From a virus: a DNA stretch of 64,000 bases. This document shows positions 1,512 through 62,208 of the stretch, in pieces; the first letter of the stretch is position 1, and each line of letters opens with the position of its first letter. The translations under genes were made by a program, and so were the position numbers. A model generated the notes under the pieces. That model saw only the letters and a list, made by a program, of their open reading frames with translations, did no database searches and was not told where the DNA came from. The stretch lies in the IMG/VR virus record IMGVR_UViG_3300025121_000038, positions 16,999-80,998 of that record, one strand, 5' to 3'.

Positions 1512-1587
1512 TGGTGGAGCTGGTCAGGGTCGAACTGACATCCTCTTGATTGCAGGTCAAGTGCTCACCCAATTGAGCTACAGCCCC
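1512..1587 (-). tRNA. tRNA-Ala(UGC), C at position 33
   Basis: GGGGCTG/CAGCTCC acceptor with G3:U70; loop CCTGCAA; CCA. Confidence 0.9.
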
Positions 1588-1593
1588 AATTTA

Positions 1594-1848
1594 TCAATAC
1601 ATCACATACTCTTTAGTAGGGTCACCATTTGGGCGTCTACGTCCACTTTGGGGGTTACGCATCCATCCATCAGGCTCTCCTACCCCATCCCATGCTTCAA
1701 AAACTGCGACCGCAGTCGAATATTCGTCGTATCACCAACTATCATCATAAAACATCTCGGAGCCTATGGCTATACGACCCCTTCCAAAAGTCAAAGGAAA
1801 TACAGATAAAACTTTCCCTGTAGTCAAAACTTTTTGTTTAACAGACAT
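1594..1848 (-). CDS. 84-aa protein with in-frame UGA (codon 39); candidate selenoprotein
   Basis: MSVKQKVLTTGKVLSVFPLTFGRGRIAIGSEMFYDDSW*YDEYSTAVAVFEAWDGVGEPDGWMRNPQSGRRRPNGDPTKEYVMY; hairpin GACTGC-GGTC-GCAGTT begins 15 nt after the UGA; ends TGA TAA. Confidence 0.65.
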
Positions 1849-15514: not shown

Positions 15515-15712
15515 ACAAAATTAATTGTCGAGTTTACCTTTACATCAAATCCGGTGCCACCGTAGGTTTCCCGGTTTGGTACTGGAACCACAAGAGGATT
15601 GGTTACCCCTACTTTTTCGGCTTAGTGCCTATGCCTCTAGTTGGGCTATGTGGTTTAAAATGAGGTGCAAGTTGTTAACATTTTATTCTGTCCATACACC
15701 TGTGTTTTAATA

Positions 15713-19001: not shown

Positions 19002-19292
19002 TCATTCAGACAAATTCTTGAACCCAGGTAAAAATCGAACCCCCACCGTCGCAACAATAGAAGGTCTCCATACCATGCCACATTTTTGACATGCATGAGT
19101 ATGATGTGCTTTTGTTTCAAACTCACCCGTATCTATATGTCTTTCGCCACATGAAGGACACCATAGCAACATCGGTATAGGCCTGGACAATACAAAGACT
19201 GCCTCTGTAAGGTCTTTTAAAGTAAACAGTACAGGGGCAGTCTTAATAGTTTCTACGCCCTCAATTATCTTGCGCAGATAGTCCTGGTTCAT
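19002..19292 (-). CDS. zinc-binding hypothetical protein
   Basis: CPSC...HHTHACQKC. Confidence 0.7.
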
Positions 19293-20482
19293 ACATTACC
19301 AATATTAGTGATCACCCCAGCCCCAATGGTACGACTACCTTCTCTAACCGCGAAGCGAGAGTTCACCTCAAAGCCAGCTGGTTTATTCAGTTCAACCTTG
19401 ATAGTAGTACGGTCACCTGGGTTGACACACTCTAACCCTTCTGGAAGAGTGATTACCCCAGTAACATCTGTAGTACCGAAATAGAATTGAGGTCTATACC
19501 CACTCTTGAATGGTTTCTCACGACCCCCTTCTTTTGCGGTCAAGGTATAAAACTCAGCCTCGAATTTTGCATTGCTTCTAATAGACCCAGGAGCGGCCAA
19601 AACTTGACCTCTCCGTATCTCGTCTCTCTTAACCCCACGGAGCAACATACCGATGTTCATACCAGCAAGACCTTCCGGTACATCTTTACGGAACATCTGG
19701 ACTCCTGTAACGACTACCTTTCTGGGTTTGCCACCCTCGTCTTCGGTAAGACCTACTATCTCAACCTCGTCTCCGATCTTGACCTTACCACGGTCAATAC
19801 GGCCTGTAGCTACCGTACCACGCCCAGATATTGTAACAACGTCTTCTACCGACATTCGGAACGGAGAGTCCATATCTCTAACAGGCTCTGGAATAGTATT
19901 GTCCAAAGCATCCATCAATTCTGGGATGGATCCGATCCAAGGGCTAGTCCAGTCTCCTGCATTAGCCGCTTCAAGAGCCTTAAGAGCGGATCCTCTCACG
20001 AACTTGACATCAGTATACCCATAGCTCTCGAGGATTTCGTTTGCTTCCATTTCTACGAGAGACAAGAGCTCTTCGTCTTCACAACGATCAACTTTGTTCA
20101 CGAAAACAACGATATGCTTTACCCCTACTTGAGATGCAAGCAATACGTGTTCCTTGGTTTGGGGCTCAGGTCCTTGAGATCCATCGACCAAAAGTATAGC
20201 ACCGTCCATCTGAGCAGCACCCGTGATCATGTTCTTGATGTAGTCAGCATGTCCTGGACAGTCAATATGTGCATAATGTCTGTTCTTTGTTACATACTCT
20301 ACGTGAGCGGTATTGATTGTAATACCACGAGCTTTTTCTTCAGGAGCTTTATCTATTTGATCATAGTTAAGGGCTTGCCCACCATGTTCTTTAGCCTGTA
20401 TCTTTGTGATAGCTGCCGTAAGAGTGGTTTTACCATGGTCGATGTGACCTATACTTCCGACTGTTAACATTACTCTACCCAT
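19289..20482 (-). CDS. tuf: elongation factor Tu with atypical (replacement) N-terminus
   Basis: [26 protein letters not shown]; GGAG before ATG at 20482. Confidence 0.96.
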
Positions 20483-22178: not shown

Positions 22179-22541
22179 TTAATCCTCCATCAGATCATAC
22201 CAGGAAACAATAGGCTGAGCAAAAGCTTTCAAGTTAGACATGTACGTATCTAACTGACCTTTCAATCTAATTCTTTCTTCATCTTCCAATCCAAACTGGA
22301 TTGCGTCTTCTAATGAGTCATGTTCACTAGAAGATCCATTCTCTTGTCAGCCCCATCCAGTATAATCACAACCAGCTCTGACTACACCATATTTGCCATT
22401 CTGAAGACAAAATAGACCTATCCAATTAGGTCCATCATTATCTCCATCTTCTTGAGCTATAGACTCAATGACGTCTTCTCTTGAAAAAGAAGCATATTTG
22501 AAAACTTCTGCCCAATCGGAATCGTCAATATCTAATATCAT
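22179..22541 (-). CDS. 120-aa protein with in-frame UGA (codon 65); candidate selenoprotein
   Basis: ...AGCDYTGWG*QENG... stays open 55 more codons to a TAA abutting the next ATG; 11-bp hairpin begins 13 nt after the UGA. Confidence 0.7.
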
Positions 22542-28488: not shown

Positions 28489-31400
28489 TTAATAAGAACG
28501 ATCTTGCACTCTTTCTAAGTGTACAACGTACAGTACTCTTATTCTACTTACATCTGCAATTGCATACTCAGCGTCTCTACCGCCATATCCATTATTGTCT
28601 ACTTTCTTGGGCCAGTAAACGCTATCATACCCGGCTGAGTTCCAAGACCTCTTTTGATGATCGTTTTTGTCATTTAAGATCAAACAATTACCTAAATCTA
28701 CTTCACAAATTAAAAAGGCTCCGGATTCAGTATATACCCCAAACCCACCGCTGATATATTGAGCACTCTTGCTTCCGCAATCTGTAAAATATATACCATC
28801 CCCCAACATTCTACCGCTCTTCGCGGTAGTCATGACTTTGAAATGATTTTGTATAATTAATCCAGCTGCAAAGTAGTGAGTGCCATGTATCAATGTTTTT
28901 ACATTTGTAGTGGGGTTTTTCCTCTTCTCATATTCTTTTTGAGGAGGGTTAACAACCTTAAATACACTTTTGATATTTGGTTTGATACCTCGATCTGCAC
29001 CTTTCCAGGTATCCTTTATGAATTTTTCAATCTTATCATGTTCATCGTTAGCTACCGCGTCTATTCTAACCGTAGATTTAGATGCGTCTGCTTCTGGTTT
29101 AATAAAATCAAAAACTCTAAGAGGATTTGATAATAACCATCCTCGAATGTCAGTATCCGACGCACGTTCAAGGGACATACTGAACAATTCTTTGTGCGTG
29201 ATAGTCCTAGATTTGGATTTGATAAGATTCAAAAACTCAGAGGTCTTGCTAGAATCATTAGTTCCAAGAGTAAATTCTGTATCTAAAGGAGCTGATAAAG
29301 GTATGGCTCTTTCTACTAAACTTTGTAGTAATGTTTCTGTGGTACTTCTGTTATTGGTCTCATCAAGCCATTTTTCTTTAGCAGACTGAGTCTTTAAGCC
29401 ATCCCAATAATCTAGTACACTTCCAATTTTCTCTGAGCGAACTCTACCAGACCCATTGAATTTTTCATTTAAAGGGGCTGAGTCTATCTTAGTGACTATA
29501 GGAATCATGTCCAGAGTAAACTGCTTCTTTCTTAATTTGAACTCCTTAGACAACAAGAATGTTAGCAAAATATTTTTGAAGTCTGAGTCTAGATCCAATT
29601 TTTCAAGAAAGGCTTCTCTCACCTTAGGACCAAAAGTACCTTGTACTTCGTAATAATATTTGAAGAGATCTAATGTCTGTGTGGAGTCAGCCCTCTCAAT
29701 CATAGATGCTTTAGTTCTAGTATCCTCTGTAACATAAGATGGGTTTGGCCATTTTACACCCTTAACTTCCATAATACCTTTACCACGCATATATTCTATC
29801 ATGCCAGGTAAGCGTGTGTCAAATTCCCATTTCGGACATGCCTGTATTAAAAGGGTTCTAGAGTTTGTATCAAACTCCCACAAAAAGTCTAAAAGCTCTT
29901 TGGATCCATACTGTACAACTGCCATTTTAAACCCAAAATTTACAGATTTGGATTTCAAAAAATTGGTCAGTACCGTATGAGAAGCGGTATCTAGTGCTGT
30001 TGTACCAGGCTTCCATAAGAGGTTTGCACAAGAAACGGGATCTTGATTTGTAATAGCTTCTGTTATCAAATCAGAATGACTATGTTCTTTCTCTTTTTCT
30101 CTTAAGGTCTGCCTACGTCTCAATTCTTCTTCAAATCTTCCTCTCGGACCCCAACCTAACTCATAATCTTTAGACGCTTTTACAAGGTCTGCGTCATCTA
30201 CCGCAGAAAGCCATACAGGGTGTTTAACATAAAAGCTAAAACATACATCTACTAAATCTCGGAATACCGGGAAAAGTGGTAGTATTGGGGACCTGTACAT
30301 ATCCCAAATAGGGAACCTTGAAGTTAGTTCGGTGAGAGATAAATTATCTAGTATAAATCTACAGTTATTCTGTCCAATATTGTAAAGATCTTTATCCTTT
30401 AAAGATACGATCCGCATCACAGTATTGGGTCCGAATGGTCTCATAGATCTTATGCAAGCTTGTACATCTAAAGTTGTAGCATTACCAAGAGCCAGAGCCC
30501 CTAACGCTGACTTAAATTGGTCATCCGACATCTTTAATACAGCTTCATCAAATCCAATTAAAGATGATTGCCAATTCCCATCCATACGATAGGAATAAGA
30601 ACTAGCCATTCGTTCTAAATGTGCGTTCAGATACATTGGGGCGTTTTCAGCAAAATCATCTCTACCAAAAACACCATTTATTATTGGGTTAGAGGATGCG
30701 GTTATTGTACTCACAACAGTATTAGAGTCTACTCCAATAACTGCTGCTGCTTGGATTAAGTGTGATGAGGATCCAATATAATTGGCGGCTATATCAGGCA
30801 TTGTACGTATGATACAAGCTATAGTAGCATCTCTAGTGTCTGGTCCTACCTCTCTGACTACGGCTCTATCTTCTAACAGAGACAAAATATACTGTTTATC
30901 TGTTTTAGAGAATTCAGTTATTCTGTTGCAAATTTGTGAAATTAATTTATATTTAGACTTCTTAACTTGTTTGATTAACTCATCTGGCGGTATATTGTTA
31001 CCTACCCATGCTTGTATACCATCAACCTCTATGTCCAATAATTCCAAATAATCTCCAGGACGTAATCTAGGCAGAACTACTTCAAGGACATCTCTTGTAT
31101 AATAGAACATATTATGCATGGTCAAAAATTTAGCTAAAGTAGCTACAGACGCTCTTCTTGCTACACATATATCAATATCGGATGATCTGCTATATCTTGT
31201 CAACAAGGCATACTTATCTACTAATTTGTCAGGATCTAAACATTCGAAATATTGCAATAACTGAGAGGAAGACATACTATTGATATCTGAGTATCTTCTT
31301 TCCATTTCTTCAGCTTTTACCTTCAAGCCCTTTGATTTCAACTCTATCGCATCTGACAATTTAGCATGTAAAGGGTCGGATGCATCTACAGACTCTTGCA

Positions 31401-32931
31401 AAACGTCTATATATTTAGACGGCAAAAAAGTAAATAACCATATGTGAACCGGATTAGATGAAACACGCCATATATCTGAGATATAAGCAAGAGACCCACC
31501 CGGATAAGACCCTAAACTATTTTCTAAATAATCTATGAATCCTTTCTTAAAAGTAGTCTCTTCAAGGAAGAGTATGTCTTCTCTAGACAATTTTTGGAAA
31601 AAAGTAAGAAACAAATTGAGGTCTACTGCACTACGAGACCATCTATCAGCTCTTACAGCTTTGATTATCTCACCCCAAGGTCTTCCAAAGATGCTGTTTA
31701 TGAATGTCGCATCTTTCACAAGATTAGCTTTTAACAAGGGTTCTATTTCTGCTCGGGTACAGTCAAAAAGCCACAATACTTCAAGGTTTCTATCACTGTT
31801 ACCATTACGTACAATTTCATTGAATAAAGTTATTCTCTCCGGCTTAGAGAGTCTGTGTATTAATGGATCTGGATCGGGAGCGTAACCCCATATTTGGGAG
31901 ATTTGTGCATTTGTCCACCGTTCTGGACTTACTACAATCACAGCAGCTTTATAAAAATCAGAATTAGCAAACAAACTGTAATCCATCATCTTAAGAGTTA
32001 GACTCTCTCTTCCTTTTAGGAGCGTTTTATAAGTTGCTTCCCAGTTTTTCGGAAACTTAGATCTCCAGCCGTAATTCCCTAAAGTATATCGTAGATACTC
32101 AAATAATATATCATCTTTGAGTTTAGAGAAATTACCTACTGTTACAAGTCCATTTGCCTCATACTTAGGCATTAAATAACCTTGCATGTATCCACGAGCA
32201 AACAAGGCACTTAATACACTCTTATCACCTTCATCTGCTATGGTCGCTAAATTCTTTAATGTCTGATCATCTGTAGTATGTTGAGCAAGGTATAATCTAT
32301 CGCCTTTGGACATTACCCGTATATCAGCTAAATCCGCTATAAAGTTAGTTGGGATACCAGTTTCTGTCGGCTGTGGAGCAGAAGCCACCATTTTGTCTAG
32401 GTCCAACAAAATCATATCCAACATTCTTCGTATGCGTGGGTTACGGAGATTATCTAAGGACTCAATCAACTGTAGCTCTACATCTTTGTTAGGAACAGAC
32501 CCATTCCTGAAATAAATCGTTGCAGGAATCAATACAGCTCTTAACTTAGGAACATGGACATGTTTAATATCATCTCGTATAGATGTGAATATTCTCTTTA
32601 GAGAAGGAGCATGATAGTTACCCGCTGCAACACGGGTCTGCACTTGATCAAATAAAGCTTTTACTTCTCCATACTCACCTGGATTCAAAATACTTTGGAG
32701 GAACTCATAAAACTCTGTAGAATTATTCTCCAAATGCTTGTATCTATTCATAGTGGTTATGAATTGACTACCATTGTAGAGAGTAGTAGCGTCTATAGAC
32801 TTTGAGTCATTTTTATAGAAATCAGACTTCGAGAATATGTACAATATCGCCAAGAATTGGACTATTTCAATCCACTCTGATCTATATTGATCAATTGGGT
32901 GTAAAGAAGGATCAACAGCTACTTTATTCAT
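28489..32931 (-). CDS. 1480-aa protein with C-terminal PARP-type ADP-ribosyltransferase domain
   Basis: LIHGT...GRMLGDGIYF...SKSAQY...CEVDLG...YDSV...EYAI (H-Y-E triad). Confidence 0.88.
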   Translation of the reverse strand: MNKVAVDPSLHPIDQYRSEWIEIVQFLAILYIFSKSDFYKNDSKSIDATTLYNGSQFITTMNRYKHLENNSTEFYEFLQSILNPGEYGEVKALFDQVQTRVAAGNYHAPSLKRIFTSIRDDIKHVHVPKLRAVLIPATIYFRNGSVPNKDVELQLIESLDNLRNPRIRRMLDMILLDLDKMVASAPQPTETGIPTNFIADLADIRVMSKGDRLYLAQHTTDDQTLKNLATIADEGDKSVLSALFARGYMQGYLMPKYEANGLVTVGNFSKLKDDILFEYLRYTLGNYGWRSKFPKNWEATYKTLLKGRESLTLKMMDYSLFANSDFYKAAVIVVSPERWTNAQISQIWGYAPDPDPLIHRLSKPERITLFNEIVRNGNSDRNLEVLWLFDCTRAEIEPLLKANLVKDATFINSIFGRPWGEIIKAVRADRWSRSAVDLNLFLTFFQKLSREDILFLEETTFKKGFIDYLENSLGSYPGGSLAYISDIWRVSSNPVHIWLFTFLPSKYIDVLQESVDASDPLHAKLSDAIELKSKGLKVKAEEMERRYSDINSMSSSQLLQYFECLDPDKLVDKYALLTRYSRSSDIDICVARRASVATLAKFLTMHNMFYYTRDVLEVVLPRLRPGDYLELLDIEVDGIQAWVGNNIPPDELIKQVKKSKYKLISQICNRITEFSKTDKQYILSLLEDRAVVREVGPDTRDATIACIIRTMPDIAANYIGSSSHLIQAAAVIGVDSNTVVSTITASSNPIINGVFGRDDFAENAPMYLNAHLERMASSYSYRMDGNWQSSLIGFDEAVLKMSDDQFKSALGALALGNATTLDVQACIRSMRPFGPNTVMRIVSLKDKDLYNIGQNNCRFILDNLSLTELTSRFPIWDMYRSPILPLFPVFRDLVDVCFSFYVKHPVWLSAVDDADLVKASKDYELGWGPRGRFEEELRRRQTLREKEKEHSHSDLITEAITNQDPVSCANLLWKPGTTALDTASHTVLTNFLKSKSVNFGFKMAVVQYGSKELLDFLWEFDTNSRTLLIQACPKWEFDTRLPGMIEYMRGKGIMEVKGVKWPNPSYVTEDTRTKASMIERADSTQTLDLFKYYYEVQGTFGPKVREAFLEKLDLDSDFKNILLTFLLSKEFKLRKKQFTLDMIPIVTKIDSAPLNEKFNGSGRVRSEKIGSVLDYWDGLKTQSAKEKWLDETNNRSTTETLLQSLVERAIPLSAPLDTEFTLGTNDSSKTSEFLNLIKSKSRTITHKELFSMSLERASDTDIRGWLLSNPLRVFDFIKPEADASKSTVRIDAVANDEHDKIEKFIKDTWKGADRGIKPNIKSVFKVVNPPQKEYEKRKNPTTNVKTLIHGTHYFAAGLIIQNHFKVMTTAKSGRMLGDGIYFTDCGSKSAQYISGGFGVYTESGAFLICEVDLGNCLILNDKNDHQKRSWNSAGYDSVYWPKKVDNNGYGGRDAEYAIADVSRIRVLYVVHLERVQDRSY

Positions 32932-33150: not shown

Positions 33151-33846
33151 TTATCCTCTTAATAAGTCTAATTTCCCATCTTCCCAATCTTGTAGTCTAA
33201 TCTTTTTATCAGTCCTATGATCAAATACAAAACCATCTTGATACCTTATGGTTCTAATTTTATCCCCACGCATTCCAGAACCTACTTGACTCTGTCGATG
33301 TTGAGATATTTCTGATTTATTCTTCGATTCCATTTCTTCATGTATTCTTGATCTAAGAACAGATAATGCCATCTTTTTATTGGCATTTTGAGACTTAGAA
33401 GCAGAGTATGCTGTAATCTTTGTTGGCACATGAGTTATACGTACCGCAGAGTCTGTAGTATTCCTATGTTGTCCACCTGGACCTGATCCTCTCATAGTTT
33501 CATATATAAGATCCGAAGGTTTTATTTGCAAATCAAAGTCTGTAGGCTCTTTCAATACAGCTACTGTGACGGTAGAAGATTGTCTTCTACCTTTCTTTTC
33601 AGTAGGAGGAACTCTCTGTACTCTGTGCCCTCCAGCCTCGTTTACTAAAAGATTATAAACATCTCTACCAGTTACCATAAACGATATCTCATGGTAACCT
33701 TTAGAGGCTTCTTTCATTTCCAATATTTCAGTATCCCATTTATGGATAGAACAATATCGGACTAACACTTTAAACATATCATAGACAAATAATTTTGCAT
33801 CATCTCCACCTTCGGCGGATCTGATTTCTATAATGACGGTATCCAT
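33151..33846 (-). CDS. prfA: class I release factor, RF1-type, lacking the N-terminal domain
   Basis: HRVQRVPPTE (PxT), GPGGQ, IRT; 231 aa. Confidence 0.88.
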   Translation of the reverse strand: MDTVIIEIRSAEGGDDAKLFVYDMFKVLVRYCSIHKWDTEILEMKEASKGYHEISFMVTGRDVYNLLVNEAGGHRVQRVPPTEKKGRRQSSTVTVAVLKEPTDFDLQIKPSDLIYETMRGSGPGGQHRNTTDSAVRITHVPTKITAYSASKSQNANKKMALSVLRSRIHEEMESKNKSEISQHRQSQVGSGMRGDKIRTIRYQDGFVFDHRTDKKIRLQDWEDGKLDLLRG

Positions 33847-37418: not shown

Positions 37419-38248
37419 ACAGGTCTCCTTTTAAAAGATTCTAGGCACTCAGTACGATCAAACATTCTTTTTCGTAAATCCGCTAATTGAGTTCGAAGTT
37501 CATTGGCATTTGATGGTCTAGCCATAGGGTCCCTGCGTATGAGAGACATCAAAAACTCTCGTAATGGTGGTCTCATATTAGCTGGTGGCTCTCCTTGTTG
37601 TATATTTCCTCCGGCCAGAGCAACCCCTATCTTGCCTACAGAGTAAAAGTCAGACTGAGCTATAGGCGGTAGCCCTAATGCAAACTCTGGCGGCAGATAG
37701 CCCGGAGTCCCACCCTTTGCTAAAGTATCTGCATCGGGTCTTGAAGCTGCCATGCCGAGATCTACTAAGACTACCTCATGGTTTTCTATATTTATAATAC
37801 AGTTACCTGGTTTTAGATCACAGTGTACTATCTGGTGTCTACCATGCAAATAAGCCAGACCATATAAGATACGATCTAATACCCAACAAATATGTTCATC
37901 ATCTATGTGTCTACCAGGATAGTCTCTACCACTAATAGGCCCAGACTCCAGTATTTTATCTAGTGACTCTCCTTGTATGAAGGATAGAACTATAAATCTT
38001 TCTAAACCTTCTTTACCAGGTATCTCTAAGTAATTTTGGAAAGATGGTAAAGCAGGATGTCTCATTTTAGATAAGAGGATAGCCTCTTCCTTGAACATCC
38101 TAATAAAAGGCTCTTGCTGTGTCTTCTCCCTTTTCAGACAGACCGGTACTTCTGTTCCAAGTATAGAATGGTGTCCTGTATATATCCACCCAAAAGACCC
38201 TTCTCCAAGGGCTCCCGTGATATAATAATTACCAACTAATTTTGGCAT
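37415..38248 (-). CDS. Ser/Thr protein kinase
   Basis: LGEGSFG, HCDLKPGN, DLG, GTPGYLPPE. Confidence 0.93.
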   Translation of the reverse strand: MPKLVGNYYITGALGEGSFGWIYTGHHSILGTEVPVCLKREKTQQEPFIRMFKEEAILLSKMRHPALPSFQNYLEIPGKEGLERFIVLSFIQGESLDKILESGPISGRDYPGRHIDDEHICWVLDRILYGLAYLHGRHQIVHCDLKPGNCIINIENHEVVLVDLGMAASRPDADTLAKGGTPGYLPPEFALGLPPIAQSDFYSVGKIGVALAGGNIQQGEPPANMRPPLREFLMSLIRRDPMARPSNANELRTQLADLRKRMFDRTECLESFKRRPV

Positions 38249-39399
38249 GTTTGTCTCTTAGCTAAAGATGGAAAAACAGTTACTAACTCTTCTGTCAATG
38301 CAGACATAGAATCTACATAATCGCGATTTTCTTTTACATTAGAAAACGTGAAGACACGTCCGTATCTATCTTTACGAATACGATTACGTAAAGTTTCTAT
38401 CTTATTTTCGGTAGACAAATCTCTGGAATTATTCAAGGATATAAAATCCTCTGAATAATTGCTTCTCGCAAATTCATCCCTATTTGGACTATCTACTACT
38501 ATCATGACATTATTGGTCCAGCTAGATAAATTATCTTCTAAAAGGCGACCATAATCCACTAAAATAGTCCCCGCAAAAGATGTTGCTAATCTCTCCCTAT
38601 ATAATCGATGTACATGCGGGAGAATTAACTTCCAGATTTCATCTTTGGCTTCAGGCCCAGCTTTCGTTACGGCCTCTATTAGTTTGACCTTATCTACGGA
38701 CAAACTATCTTCCGATAAAACATCATCTTGGAACATAGCGTTCAAATTGTCTCTAACTAACTGAGCCCCAGGTGTGGCTTCTTGAAAAAGTTTTTGAATC
38801 AAATCATCTATAGATATAAATTGGACAACATGACCTGTTTTATACCGGATATAAGACGATAATCTCTCACAAAGGTATGACTTGCCACTTCCTAAACATC
38901 CAGTGACCCCTATCAAAAGATGTTTGTGCATGCGTTTTTCTAAACTAGCTTTTACAGACAGCCTCACCATTGGCGAGACGTCAACATGATGCCAAGCAAA
39001 GGATTTGATTAATGTAGAAGAGATATGGACTAATTCTGGGTTGGCCAATATATATTGAACATTTAGATGTGGGTATATCAATTTATGAAAAGACATCTGT
39101 TTGTCTTCATATGCTTTGTCAGATTCGTTACGTATACCACGGAAGAGAACGTCACAACCTTCTCGTAGATACATATCTACAAGTGGTAGATTGCCAGTCA
39201 CTACTTCATACTTTATACCCGCAGCTCTTATTAATTCGACTCTCTCTTCTTGAGAATATAAATAAGATCCTCTCTTCTCATCATTATCAGTGATATATAT
39301 GACGAAACTTTGACATTTAGAGGAAGCCACTTGGAACAGATGTTCATGTCCTAAATGAACTGGGTCTCCAGATAAAGCTACCATCCCACGTCGATACAT
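38236..39399 (-). CDS. coaD: phosphopantetheine adenylyltransferase fused to dephospho-CoA kinase-like domain
   Basis: DPVHLGH, RGIR, ISSTLIK; then GVTGCLGSGKS. Confidence 0.8.
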   Translation of the reverse strand: MYRRGMVALSGDPVHLGHEHLFQVASSKCQSFVIYITDNDEKRGSYLYSQEERVELIRAAGIKYEVVTGNLPLVDMYLREGCDVLFRGIRNESDKAYEDKQMSFHKLIYPHLNVQYILANPELVHISSTLIKSFAWHHVDVSPMVRLSVKASLEKRMHKHLLIGVTGCLGSGKSYLCERLSSYIRYKTGHVVQFISIDDLIQKLFQEATPGAQLVRDNLNAMFQDDVLSEDSLSVDKVKLIEAVTKAGPEAKDEIWKLILPHVHRLYRERLATSFAGTILVDYGRLLEDNLSSWTNNVMIVVDSPNRDEFARSNYSEDFISLNNSRDLSTENKIETLRNRIRKDRYGRVFTFSNVKENRDYVDSMSALTEELVTVFPSLAKRQTCQN

Positions 39400-45628: not shown

Positions 45629-45704
45629 AGGTGCCCCTGGTGGGTTTTGATCCCACTGCCTTGGTATTTAAAGTACCTCGCTCTTCCAATTGAGCTACAG
45701 GGAC
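45629..45704 (-). tRNA. putative ochre suppressor tRNA (UUA)
   Basis: Full cloverleaf; GGTA-CTTTAAA-TACC; ends A-CCT. Confidence 0.7.
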
Positions 45705-52906: not shown

Positions 52907-53757
52907 TTACTCTTTAACTTCTGGATAAGTATACTTTCCACGATTAAAAATCAACTCACTATCTGTAAGCCATCCTTTCTTAATAGCTACAAACCGCCAA
53001 CGCACCCACACTACATCTATTCCAGAAATACCTGGACAGGATCGCAGGGCTCTATCCAAAGCCTTCCCTTCATCTACGGTCACATTGTCAGCATTGTCCA
53101 TAAGAGTATCAGCGTAATTACGCAAGGCAACTGCTACCATTTTTTCGCTATTCTTAGCTTTCATGACTTACTCCATAAGGTCAAATTAAATACCTATGAG
53201 GAGGTAACGGTCGGTCTACGATAGAAGTAAGACTCTGACTAATATATCACACCATCATCTTCATAACCTATAGATCCTACCGCATAATATTCATCTTCAT
53301 CAAGACAATGATAACCGAGCAGAGATTTCTCAGATTTCTGAAGGCTCCATGGGCAAATCTTTTTCTCACGAGCACATTTACCACATATCTTAGGCTCATG
53401 ACCAATCATAGAGTGAGATATAACTATCTGATCACAATATAAACATTTCTTATCCATGACACGATACCCTCAATGTTTCAGGACATTATGATAGCCGTTA
53501 GTCAATTTATAAGACTTGAATCCTTCTTCATCATTCTTACCTAAAAACTCTACCAAAGTACGATGATATTCAGAAGGGCTATGTCGGTATGTATTTCTTT
53601 TCCTGCCTGCTTTCAAATGAGCGGCAAGACCTTCTTTGTACTCTCCTTCTCCCAGACGTTGAAGATATTTTTGAGCAGCACTTTGCCAATGAGTGTCACT
53701 TCTGTCATCGGAAACGATCCTGTCTGACAAATTTAATATTTTTGAGAACGTGTCCAT
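52907..53757 (-). CDS. three hypothetical proteins (52907-53164, 53239-53457, 53470-53757)
   Basis: ORF track. Confidence 0.65.
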
Positions 53758-60816: not shown

Positions 60817-60940
60817 TTACCGTTCAAGTCTTAAGGACTAATGAGTTATATGCAGGTTTCGAGCCTGCTACATTTCGTGTTCAAGACGAATGCTCTACCA
60901 ATGAGCTAATATGTGTATGTCCTAAACGTCAGAACGGCAA
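60817..60940 (-). ncRNA. Y-RNA-like RNA enclosing a tRNA cloverleaf
   Basis: TGCCGTTC/GAACGGTA, AGGAC/GTCCT, ATACACA, then D, anticodon (CTTGAAC) and T arms. Confidence 0.65.
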
Positions 60941-62128: not shown

Positions 62129-62208
62129 TATCTATGAATAGAGGATTTGAACCTCTGACCTCCAGATTGGGGTCCGGCACTCTACCAGACTGAGCTAATT
62201 CATAGATA
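62129..62208 (-). ncRNA. tRNA-like RNA, 11-bp acceptor, 6-nt anticodon loop
   Basis: CCGGA-CCCCAA-TCTGG; canonical D and T arms; no CCA. Confidence 0.6.

What the first reader, a model, noticed from the sequence alone, without database searches (positions are those of the whole stretch)
1594..1848. Hidden ORF with in-frame UGA and fdhF-like SECIS hairpin: candidate phage selenoprotein 1
Seen: the gap between tRNA-Ala and the next gene holds a protein-like frame, missed by the ORF track, broken once by TGA at 1732-1734 (FYDDSW*YDEY...EAWDGVGEPDGWMRNPQSGRRRPNGDP). It ends in a double stop TGA-TAA. Fifteen nt after the UGA is GACUGC-GGUC-GCAGUU, extendable by UUCGA/UUGAA. Established: bacterial SECIS elements sit just 3' of the Sec UGA, and the E. 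coli fdhF apex is UGCAGGUCUGCA. From memory (unverified), homologues read W-C-Y at this position. Inference: Sec is inserted using host SelB and tRNA-Sec.
Basis: partly seen in the sequence, partly recalled or inferred. Interest (0 to 1): 0.85.

Follow-up and report, generated by a model that had tools for sequence, protein, structure and literature searches.

The report
Phage gene encoding a selenocysteine protein
A small gene of an uncultured groundwater phage runs through an internal UGA "stop" at a codon where other relatives have cysteine, and a co-evolving RNA hairpin follows it, so it most likely makes a selenium-containing protein using the host's machinery.

Summary

- **Gene:** an 84-codon gene lies on the minus strand at 1848-1597, with an in-frame TGA at codon 39 (1734-1732).
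- **Cys/stop pairing:** all 59 Cys-type homologues examined have Cys (TGC/TGT) at that codon. 84 distinct phage or metagenome sequences carry TGA there and 3 carry TAG. On a quick tree the stop-bearing forms fall on one side of a branch.
- **Hairpin:** a 6-bp hairpin with a GGUC loop starts at the 15th nt after the UGA. It has the same loop as the E. coli fdhF SECIS, which I read from the K-12 genome. It covaries strongly at wobble positions, is absent from the Cys forms, and meets all four published bacterial SECIS constraints.
- **TGA is otherwise a stop:** it ends 48 of 110 ORFs on this contig.
- **Fold:** AlphaFold folds the read-through protein as one domain (pLDDT 95.6).
- **Not an assembly error:** the sequence is identical in contigs from 3 samples.

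The contig encodes no tRNA-Sec or SelB, so the host machinery is inferred. The protein's function is unknown (no Pfam family, no fold match). I found no paper describing a phage selenoprotein. This scan has flagged phage selenoprotein candidates before on other DNA, probably including this same family.

The parts
1597..1848 (-). 84-codon gene of an uncharacterised phage protein family (no Pfam family). It reads through one in-frame UGA. ATG at 1848-1846.
   Evidence: Translations. Homologues align across the UGA. AlphaFold2 on the 70-sequence alignment gives one compact domain, pLDDT 95.6 and pTM 0.84.
1732..1734 (-). In-frame UGA, codon 39: the predicted selenocysteine codon.
   Evidence: It aligns with an invariant Cys (TGC 43, TGT 16) in the Cys-type homologues. 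TGA is kept in 20 of the 79 loci L001-L080 that cover the codon, one of them the window's own, and in 78 of 82 further loci, the other 4 having TAG.
1702..1717 (-). SECIS-like hairpin inside the coding sequence: 6-bp stem GACUGC/GCAGUU with apical loop GGUC (1711-1708). It codes for the Ala-Val-Ala stretch.
   Evidence: RNAalifold predicts the same 6 pairs on its own. Pair 24-33 of the alignment reads GC 24, CG 23, UA 17, UG 5, AU 4, GU 1. The loop matches E. coli fdhF. It meets the bSECIS consensus constraints.
1696..1720 (-). Possible lower-stem extension: UUC 1720-1718 pairs with GAA 1698-1696 across a UUU bulge.
   Evidence: Seen in the sequence and in the single-sequence fold. The two extension pairs tested in the alignment are only weakly conserved in relatives (pairs 19-38 and 20-37).
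1591..1596 (-). Real terminator: TGA (1596-1594) followed by TAA (1593-1591).
   Evidence: In 18 of 20 TGA-bearing loci the frame ends exactly 45 codons after the internal UGA, and 14 of those 20 genes end in TGA themselves.
1512..1587 (-). tRNA-Ala(UGC), the downstream neighbour on the same strand. Context only.
   Evidence: ARAGORN and Rfam.

Best explanation
The gene at 1848-1597 (minus strand) encodes an 84-residue selenoprotein of a large, unnamed phage protein family.

**How it is read.** During infection the host's Sec machinery reads the UGA at codon 39 as selenocysteine: tRNA-Sec, charged through SerRS, SelA and SelD, and delivered by SelB. SelB is recruited by the hairpin that begins 15 nt downstream (6-bp stem, GGUC loop) and lies inside the coding sequence, as in bacterial selenoprotein genes. 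Ribosomes that lose the race to RF2 make a 38-residue fragment. Those that insert Sec continue 45 codons to the real TGA-TAA terminator.

**What Sec replaces.** Sec replaces the only invariant Cys of the family. That residue sits at the end of beta-strand 4 of a small four-strand-plus-helix domain, so it is presumably the reactive (redox or nucleophilic) residue.

**Shown:**
- the Cys/UGA pairing;
- conservation of the UGA across diverged phages;
- a covarying hairpin specific to the UGA forms;
- TGA is a normal stop elsewhere on the contig;
- one fold spans the UGA.

**Inferred:**
- SelB binding;
- a host that has the Sec trait;
- the identity of the inserted residue;
- the protein's chemistry.
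For: 1. **Sec/Cys pair.** All 59 Cys-type loci have TGC or TGT at the codon. 20 loci have TGA, including the window's own.
2. **Breadth.** 87 distinct 57-nt segments carry the stop (84 TGA, 3 TAG). They are 42-59% identical in protein to the window's gene within the IMG/VR set. In the 20-row Sec alignment the invariant residues downstream of the stop are A46, V47, W53, G55, G57, P59, G61, W62, R64, R70, R72, D76, E80 and Y81, so the part after the UGA is under selection.
3. **Hairpin.** 86.4% of cells are paired against 72.4% in shuffles (0 of 500). The covariation score is 0.440 against 0.193 (0 of 500), and every slid register scores lower. 71 of 87 sequences have at least 5 of 6 pairs in register, with loops GGUC 61, AGUU 8, GGUU 1 and AGGU 1. 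The Cys forms average 3.0 of 6 pairs.
4. **bSECIS constraints** from the legend of Fig. 2 in PMC13188914 are all met: loop 4 nt, stem 6 bp, G in loop positions 1-2 followed by U, 20-nt spacing, MFE -8.2 kcal/mol.
5. **E. coli fdhF**, read from NC_000913.3, has the same GGUC loop at +22 to +25. Here the loop is at +24 to +27.
6. **TGA is a true stop here.** 48 of 110 ORFs end in TGA, and the next ORF is in frame +2 in 25 of 39 cases, as ATGA-type overlaps would give. 14 of 20 family genes end in TGA.
7. **No suppressor.** None of the 43 tRNAs that ARAGORN lists on the contig, nor the one extra tRNA that only Rfam found, has a UCA anticodon.
8. **Fold.** AlphaFold2 gives pLDDT 95.6 for the read-through protein.
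9. **A second gene** on the same contig (22541-22182) has a UGA where a homologue reads GCDYTGWLCQ.
10. **Identical sequence** in contigs of 3 samples.
Against: - There is no direct evidence for selenium.
- The host is unknown, so its Sec trait is untested. EF-Tu homologues gave no host lead.
- The contig is only about 35% of the genome, so a phage-borne factor elsewhere cannot be excluded.
- Rfam has no match for the hairpin at gathering thresholds.
- The window's own hairpin is not thermodynamically unusual (z -0.08).
- The loop lies 2 nt further from the UGA than in fdhF, and I did not assess a conserved bulged U.
- 16 of 87 sequences do not fit the common register. By my reading, most have a shifted hairpin; three have only a weak one (L100, L157, L160) and two a hairpin without GU in the loop (L137, L140).
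- The loop's GU is also the Val codon, so RNA and protein constraints are confounded there.
- The metagenome scan used the pattern GEPxGWMR[HN], which favours the Sec type. The 78:0 ratio of TGA to Cys in that set is therefore biased.
Confidence: 0.85

Rival explanations
1. SelB-independent read-through. The UGA is decoded by a near-cognate or suppressor tRNA (Trp, Cys or Arg), and the downstream hairpin only slows termination. The product is full length but has no selenium.
For: The host's Sec machinery is not shown. The hairpin is short. The phage manipulates translation heavily: 43 tRNAs, EF-Tu, an RF1-like protein and a tRNA with a UUA anticodon.
Against: The replaced residue is an invariant Cys, the hallmark of Sec. 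The loop is the SelB-type GGUC and its GU is kept in the loop variants. No tRNA on the contig has a UCA anticodon. The same design recurs in about 87 diverged phage sequences of very different GC content, which would each need a suppressor. In one sub-lineage the codon is UAG with the same hairpin, which suits a codon-independent, hairpin-directed delivery.
Confidence: 0.08
2. Termination at the UGA gives a 38-residue peptide. The rest is a decaying pseudogene remnant, or is made separately by re-initiation.
For: Gene callers stop at the UGA. A TGY-to-TGA change is a single substitution.
Against: 84 distinct TGA sequences keep exactly the same frame, and most keep the 45-codon length after the stop. 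Invariant motifs lie downstream. No start codon follows the UGA here. The predicted fold needs both halves. The stop-bearing forms lie on one side of a branch with long internal divergence, which is not what recent decay would give.
Confidence: 0.03
3. These phages or their hosts read TGA as a sense codon throughout (code 4 or 25 type).
For: The phage carries an RF1-like gene and no RF2 gene on the 81 kb held.
Against: TGA ends 48 of 110 ORFs here, with following-ORF frames of the kind ATGA overlaps would give. The family gene itself ends in TGA in 14 of 20 loci, including all 4 TAG-bearing loci.
Confidence: 0.01

Closest known systems
Bacterial selenoprotein genes with an in-ORF SECIS read by SelB (prototype E. 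coli fdhF; bSECIS consensus as summarised in PMC13188914)
   Same: An in-frame UGA at a Cys position, with a stem-loop immediately 3' inside the coding region. The apical loop is GGUC, identical to fdhF as read from NC_000913.3. All four consensus constraints are met.
   Different: The gene is in a virus of bacteria, and in a protein family never listed as a selenoprotein. The loop is 2 nt further from the UGA than in fdhF. The closing pair is C-G rather than A-U. The Sec machinery must be borrowed from the host.
Poxvirus glutathione peroxidase selenoproteins (molluscum contagiosum, fowlpox), the viral selenoproteins named in the review PMC8310308 (passages read)
   Same: A virus-encoded gene decoded as Sec by the host's machinery. 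In fowlpox the SECIS is also inside the coding region.
   Different: Those are captured host GPx genes with eukaryotic SECIS elements and SBP2/eEFSec. This is a bacterial-type SECIS in a phage-specific family with no cellular selenoprotein counterpart.
Natural Sec recoding at UAG or UGC/UGU by anticodon variants of tRNA-Sec (Mukai et al. 2016, as cited in the introduction of PMC8124441; passage read; the 2016 paper itself is not held)
   Same: Three distinct members of this family (L084, L094, L132/L133) have UAG instead of UGA at the same codon, with the same GGUC hairpin, and end in TGA.
   Different: No tRNA-Sec(CUA) was looked for or found here. The UAG reading as Sec is an inference.
Cys-containing homologues: hypothetical proteins of Caulobacter Bertelyvirus phages (CcrC2_gp253c, CcrBL9_gp257c), Brevundimonas phage Kabachok (KABACHOK_01010) and Sinorhizobium phage Phosso
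   Same: The same family, 31-38% identical, with invariant C39, W53, G57, P59, G61, W62 and R70.
   Different: They have Cys plus GWHRHP, no hairpin, and a somewhat longer N-terminus. The Sec forms have GWMR[HN]P.

Membership tests
Bacterial SECIS element (bSECIS consensus model) | Stem-loop immediately downstream of an in-frame UGA, inside the ORF | tested here: met
   The stem starts at the 15th nt after the UGA and the frame stays open for 45 more codons.
Bacterial SECIS element (bSECIS consensus model) | Apical loop of 3-9 nt and upper stem of 4-16 bp | tested here: met
   4-nt loop and 6-bp stem. RNAalifold finds the same helix. Criterion taken from PMC13188914, Fig. 2 legend.
Bacterial SECIS element (bSECIS consensus model) | At least one G in the first two loop positions, usually followed by G or U | tested here: met
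   The loop is GGUC here. Among the 71 in-register sequences the loops are GGUC 61, AGUU 8, GGUU 1 and AGGU 1.
Bacterial SECIS element (bSECIS consensus model) | 16-37 nt between the UGA and the apical loop | tested here: met
   20 nt.
Bacterial SECIS element (bSECIS consensus model) | MFE of -7.5 kcal/mol or lower | tested here: met
   -8.2 kcal/mol for the 46 nt from the UGA. This is a narrow pass and is not better than shuffles (z -0.08).
Bacterial SECIS element (bSECIS consensus model) | Binds SelB | not testable with these tools
   Needs a binding or reporter assay.
Selenoprotein gene | Cys-containing homologues align with the UGA | tested here: met
   59 of 59 Cys-type loci have TGC or TGT at the codon. 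The profile search found 1141 proteins of the family at E <= 0.001; I did not inspect that column in them.
Selenoprotein gene | UGA conserved in diverged orthologues, with conserved sequence downstream | tested here: met
   84 distinct TGA segments. Invariant residues lie after the stop.
Selenoprotein gene | The organism (here the host) has selA, selB, selC and selD | not testable with these tools
   The host is unknown. The phage contig has none: tRNA-Sec best 41.2 bits against a cut-off of 47, and the selB-model hit is EF-Tu. selA and selD were not searched.
Selenoprotein gene | Selenium in the protein (75Se labelling or mass spectrometry) | not testable with these tools
   This needs an experiment.
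Genome-wide TGA reassignment (codes 4 or 25) | TGA is not used as a terminator, and in-frame TGA occurs in many genes | tested here: not met
   48 of 110 ORFs end in TGA, with following-ORF frames as ATGA overlaps would give.
E. coli fdhF-type SECIS | GGUC apical loop with G and U exposed, a bulged U below the upper stem, and fixed spacing to the UGA | tested here: inconclusive
   The loop is identical. Spacing is +2 nt. A conserved bulged U was not assessed. That the G, U and bulged U contact SelB is recalled and comes from no call.

The most novel reading that the evidence does not exclude
This is one family of a hidden phage selenoproteome. Phages of soil and groundwater bacteria carry genes that use the host's SelB, tRNA-Sec and selenium supply.

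In this family the recoded codon follows the host's Sec codon. It is UGA in 84 distinct sequences. It is UAG, two substitutions away, with the hairpin intact and TGA used as the real stop, in a high-GC sub-lineage.

The Cys-to-Sec switch came with a neighbouring His-to-Met change (GWHRHP to GWMRHP). This would fit loss of a general base once the residue is a selenolate at neutral pH.

Sec dependence would then tie phage fitness, and possibly host range, to the host's Sec trait.
Probability: 0.55. Interest if true: 0.9.

Novelty: new variant of a known kind. Interest (0 to 1): 0.82.

Why it matters
Selenocysteine insertion is known in cells and, among viruses, in two poxviruses that captured host GPx genes (PMC8310308, passages read). 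I found no report for a virus of bacteria. The phrases 'phage selenoprotein', 'phage-encoded selenoprotein', 'bacteriophage selenoprotein' and 'selenoproteins in phages' occur in no paper of the library. A 2026 review of the prokaryotic selenoproteome does not contain any word beginning with phage, prophage, virus or viral.

If true:
- Phage genomes are systematically mis-annotated at such genes, because gene callers truncate them.
- Phages draw on a scarce host resource and a specialised translation factor.
- The Sec trait of a host becomes a possible determinant of phage fitness.
- A new, very small (84-residue) selenoprotein with a compact SECIS becomes available for study.
- The UAG variants offer natural test cases for Sec recoding at another codon.

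It is directly testable with a reporter in selB+ and selB- strains.

Tried and rejected
**Function**
- Pfam: 0 families for the protein. Across the 70 family members there was only one chance SPASM hit, E 0.0099.
- PHROGs: only phrog_24748 at E 0.077.
- PDB by sequence profile: a lectin at E 0.059.
- Fold searches: Foldseek against PDB gave nothing at E <= 0.001. VIA-align wide gave a best Z of 5.0, a LolB, within noise. BFVD gave a best E of 0.046, an uncharacterised protein.
- ESM Atlas with a natural Cys homologue returned only 'hypothetical protein' clusters.
- Gene neighbourhood: no neighbour family is shared by more than 7 of the roughly 155 loci.

**Host**
- EF-Tu homologues gave only unnamed metagenome proteins at 70-80% identity and mixed phyla at about 64%.
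- Genome contigs held only two loci. Both are on about 83-kb contigs binned into two different MAGs, so they give no host evidence.

**Expression**
- No RNA holder was listed.

**Other checks**
- The single protein as query found no close relative in IMG/VR.
- Rfam at gathering thresholds found only tRNAs.
- The selB-model hit was examined and is EF-Tu (TIGR00485, 568 bits against a cut-off of 522).
- The other same-frame TGA junction inside the window, at 53472, is two ordinary genes: an ATG lies 4 codons after the stop and the fold has z 0.01. The one at contig position 15570, outside the window, was not examined.
- The careful tree did not finish in 300 s, so the quick tree is reported.
- selA and selD were not searched on the contig.
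- bSECISearch itself is not available. I applied its published constraints by hand.
- Supplements of the papers were closed. Lists of new selenoprotein families in supplements (for example deep-Sep or BSepDB) could hold this family and were not seen.
Full report
**What is there.** The window is the last 64 kb of an 80,998-b IMG/VR virus record that CheckV rates about 35% complete. GC content is 38%. The contig has 43 tRNA genes, 42 of them in the window. The DNA comes from groundwater metagenomes.

Between the gene at 2456-1932 and tRNA-Ala(UGC) at 1587-1512, the minus strand holds an ATG at 1848-1846. It is followed by 38 sense codons, a TGA at 1734-1732, and 45 more sense codons. The frame ends in TGA at 1596-1594 and TAA at 1593-1591.

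The hairpin GACUGC-GGUC-GCAGUU occupies 1717-1702. Its stem starts at the 15th nt after the UGA, and 20 nt separate the UGA from the loop.

**Is the TGA real?** Logan contigs of four runs (three samples, two studies; one sample is not flagged as a possible source of this DNA) are identical to the window over 1500-1950. No differing letters or indels were reported.

**Homologues.** tblastn against 50,697 phage records found 17 records: Caulobacter Bertelyvirus, Brevundimonas and Sinorhizobium phages. Every match runs across codon 39. Four annotated 'hypothetical proteins' align with Cys at that column, as DRWCY or DRYCY/F.

A profile-guided scan of IMG/VR gave 75 loci. I ran my own tblastn over 80 loci, including the four named phages and the window's own contig. 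79 loci cover the codon: TGC 43, TGT 16 and TGA 20. One locus (L054) does not reach it.

A metagenome scan found 112 relatives, of which 80 were kept. Together with two MAG contigs, these gave 78 TGA, 4 TAG and no Cys codon. This scan used the pattern GEPxGWMR[HN], which is biased towards the stop-bearing type. After removing duplicates there are 87 distinct 57-nt segments: 84 with TGA, including the window, and 3 with TAG.

The family as a whole is large. 1141 proteins match the profile at E <= 0.001. Every source name shown among the 120 listed reads 'hypothetical protein' or 'uncharacterized protein', and none of the 120 has a Pfam domain.

**The region after the stop is under selection.** In 18 of 20 TGA loci the frame ends exactly 45 codons after the TGA. 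In the 20 Sec-type sequences, 14 positions downstream of the stop are invariant: A46, V47, W53, G55, G57, P59, G61, W62, R64, R70, R72, D76, E80 and Y81. AlphaFold2 on the 70-sequence alignment, with Cys standing in for Sec, gives one compact domain with pLDDT 95.6 and pTM 0.84. It has strands at 4-7, 13-18, 24-29 and 34-40 and a helix at 43-52. Residue 39 ends strand 4, so the fold needs both sides of the UGA.

**The hairpin.**
- *First alignment.* On the ungapped alignment of the first 20 TGA loci, RNAalifold predicts the same 6-bp helix, columns 21-26 with 31-36.
- *Full alignment.* On all 87 distinct sequences, 86.4% of cells form standard pairs against 72.4 +/- 1.2% in shuffles (0 of 500 as high). 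The covariation score is 0.440 against 0.193 (0 of 500). Every slid register scores lower (0.065-0.179).
- *Covarying pairs.* The two pairs that fall on third codon positions vary freely but stay paired. Pair 24-33 reads GC 24, CG 23, UA 17, UG 5, AU 4, GU 1 and other 13. Pair 21-36 reads GC 25, CG 19, AU 12, GU 8, UA 3, UG 2 and other 18.
- *Register.* 71 of 87 sequences have at least 5 of 6 pairs in the common register, with loops GGUC 61, AGUU 8, GGUU 1 and AGGU 1. By my reading of the folds, most of the other 16 have a hairpin shifted by a few nt, usually with GU in the loop. Three have only a weak hairpin (L100, L157, L160), and two have a hairpin without GU in the loop (L137, L140).
- *Control.* The 52 distinct Cys-type sequences average 3.0 of 6 pairs at the same columns, against 5.55 for the TGA type. 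Only 1 of the 52 reaches 6 of 6.
- *Single sequence.* The window's own hairpin alone is not exceptional (-8.2 kcal/mol, z -0.08). The case rests on comparison.

**Comparison with known SECIS elements.** The 2026 review PMC13188914 (section 'Prokaryotic SECIS elements' read) gives the consensus as:
- a 3-9 nt loop and a 4-16 bp upper stem;
- a G in the first two loop positions, mostly followed by G or U;
- 16-37 nt between the UGA and the loop;
- MFE of -7.5 kcal/mol or lower.

The window meets all four: 4 nt, 6 bp, GGUC, 20 nt and -8.2 kcal/mol. I fetched E. coli K-12 fdhF. Its Sec UGA is followed by a hairpin with the same GGUC loop at +22 to +25, counting the U of UGA as +1. Here the loop is at +24 to +27. 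That the loop G and U contact SelB is recalled knowledge and comes from no call. One caution applies: the loop's GU is also the invariant Val47 codon, so RNA and protein constraints are intertwined. Cys-type relatives have varied residues at that position (Lys, Leu, Ile and others).

**TGA is otherwise a stop.** Among 110 non-overlapping minus-strand ORFs of at least 70 codons, 48 end in TGA, 45 in TAA and 17 in TAG. After a TGA the next ORF is in frame +2 in 25 of 39 cases, as ATGA-type overlaps would give, and in the same frame in only 6. 14 of the 20 family genes end in TGA themselves. A strict scan of the whole contig found only this site. The scan asked for a TGA open for at least 25 codons on both sides, followed by a 4-nt NGUN loop on a stem of at least 5 bp.

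**Who decodes it?** The contig has no tRNA-Sec. The best RF01852 hit scores 41.2 bits against a cut-off of 47, and such sub-threshold hits also appear in all 14 control genomes. Rfam finds only ordinary tRNAs. None of the 43 tRNAs has a UCA or CUA anticodon. By my reading of the sequence, the tRNA that ARAGORN labels '???' at 62131-62205 has a CCA anticodon.

The one selB-model hit is a phage EF-Tu (TIGR00485, 568 bits against a cut-off of 522). Five related phage records carrying the TGA form, three of them rated 100% complete, have no tRNA-Sec over the cut-off. The two best loci hold tRNA-Ser genes at the hit positions. So the machinery must be the host's. This is inferred, and the host is unknown.

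**Supporting observation on the same contig.** A second gene (22541-22182) has an in-frame UGA in GCDYTGWG-UGA-Q where a phage homologue reads GCDYTGWLCQ (BLASTP E 4e-14). A stable 11-bp hairpin follows it (-17.6 kcal/mol, z -3.34), with a different 7-nt loop. Two independent Cys/UGA pairs in one phage fit a Sec-proficient host.

**Evolution.** A quick maximum-likelihood tree of 139 distinct proteins (87 TGA, 3 TAG, 49 Cys) puts all stop-bearing forms on one side of a branch (SH-aLRT 88). The Cys forms L010 and L044 are nearest. The TAG forms make up one subgroup (support 86). The alignment has few columns, most forks are unresolved and the root is arbitrary. One origin is therefore compatible with the data but not proven.

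In the unbiased IMG/VR set the motif after the helix is as follows:

| Codon 39 | Motif | Loci |
|---|---|---|
| Cys | GWH | 54 |
| Cys | GWR | 1 |
| TGA | GWM | 18 |
| TGA | GWH | 1 |

Because this may be a single event, it is an observation and not statistical co-evolution.

**The UAG variants.** L084, L094 and L132/L133 carry TAG at the codon, the same GGUC hairpin and 45 further codons, and they end in TGA. They come from contigs with 64-71% GC. Over 240 nt compared without gaps they are only 58-63% identical to each other, which may understate their identity if there are indels. TGA to TAG needs two substitutions.

[quoted passage not shown] 2016. That paper is not held. The simplest reading is that this sub-lineage infects such hosts. 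This is untested.

**Function.** Unknown. Sequence and fold searches gave nothing, and gene context is not conserved. Sec replaces the family's only invariant Cys. The most likely role is therefore a reactive thiol or selenol in a small redox or nucleophile-based protein. The Arg-rich C-terminal motif may bind a nucleic acid or an acidic partner. This is inference with low confidence.

**Literature.**
- Three searches combining selenoprotein or selenocysteine terms with phage terms listed no title or abstract about a phage selenoprotein.
- Of the six exact phrases searched, the five that name a phage or bacteriophage selenoprotein occur in no paper. 'Viral selenoprotein' occurs in 11 papers, all on viruses of animals.
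- The recoding review PMC8310308 names the two poxvirus GPx genes as viruses that have incorporated a selenoprotein gene (passages read).
- PMC9402790 reports few or no viral sequences in selenoprotein families of the GOS data (passages read).
- PMC13188914 and the deep-Sep paper PMC12013277 contain no word beginning with phage, virus or viral.
- Subscription journals and supplements were not searchable.

**Earlier notes of this scan.** Several follow-up agents reported phage selenoprotein candidates on other DNA. One concerns a 157-kb phage, the size of the contig behind my L015/L134. Another quotes '...DDFW-TGA' with 47 further codons. Both are probably this same family. I treat them as leads and not as independent evidence. 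L015 is in my alignments and behaves like the rest.

**Verdict.** This is a genuine recoded gene (about 0.95). Selenocysteine inserted through a SelB-type SECIS and host machinery is the best explanation (0.85). It is a known mechanism in a new setting: a virus of bacteria, and a new selenoprotein family.

Noticed in passing
window 22182-22541 (-): A second in-frame UGA gene (codon 65, GCDYTGWG-UGA-Q). A phage homologue (MW202608, L163:211-615) reads GCDYTGWLCQ, so Cys aligns with the UGA. An 11-bp hairpin with a 7-nt loop follows (z -3.34). No close relative was found in IMG/VR with the single protein as query.
   Followed up: partly
L084, L094, L132, L133 (metagenome contigs, GC 64-71%): Members of the same family carry TAG instead of TGA at the recoded codon. 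They have the same GGUC hairpin and a real TGA terminator. This is possibly Sec at UAG in hosts with an anticodon-variant tRNA-Sec.
   Followed up: partly
window 19292-20479 (-): The phage encodes a full-length EF-Tu (TIGR00485, 568 bits, over the cut-off). Its closest relatives (70-80% identity) are unnamed metagenome proteins, on contigs up to about 140 kb.
   Followed up: partly
window 33154-33846 (-): A 231-residue release-factor-1-like protein lacking the N-terminal domain (prfA 261 bits, below the cut-off of 423; RF2 model 164 bits). It has a PPT tripeptide and a GGQ motif. No RF2-like gene is on the contig.
   Followed up: partly
window 45630-45704 (-): A well-folded tRNA with a UUA anticodon, which would read ochre (z -3.30). 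TAA still ends 45 of 110 ORFs.
   Followed up: no
window 62131-62205 (-) and 60848-60912 (-): By my reading of the sequence, the tRNA that ARAGORN labels '???' has anticodon loop CCCCAAU, that is a CCA (Trp) anticodon. A further tRNA, found only by Rfam, has anticodon UGA but no long variable arm.
   Followed up: partly
window 28492-32931 (-): A 1480-residue protein with a C-terminal PARP catalytic domain (PF00644, E 5.8e-17).
   Followed up: no
window 38239-39399 (-): A 387-residue protein that combines a cytidylyltransferase-like domain with a dephospho-CoA kinase (CoaE) domain.
   Followed up: no
L081 and L082 (genome contigs): The same family gene, with identical sequence around the UGA, lies on two about 83-kb contigs binned into two MAGs of different phyla (a proteobacterium and a Gemmatimonadetes). 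This looks like a phage contig mis-binned twice.
   Followed up: no
L010 (IMG/VR contig): One of the two Cys-type relatives nearest the Sec clade (the other is L044). It keeps the GGUC letters at the loop position but only 3 of 6 stem pairs. It may be a form before the gain of Sec or after its loss.
   Followed up: no
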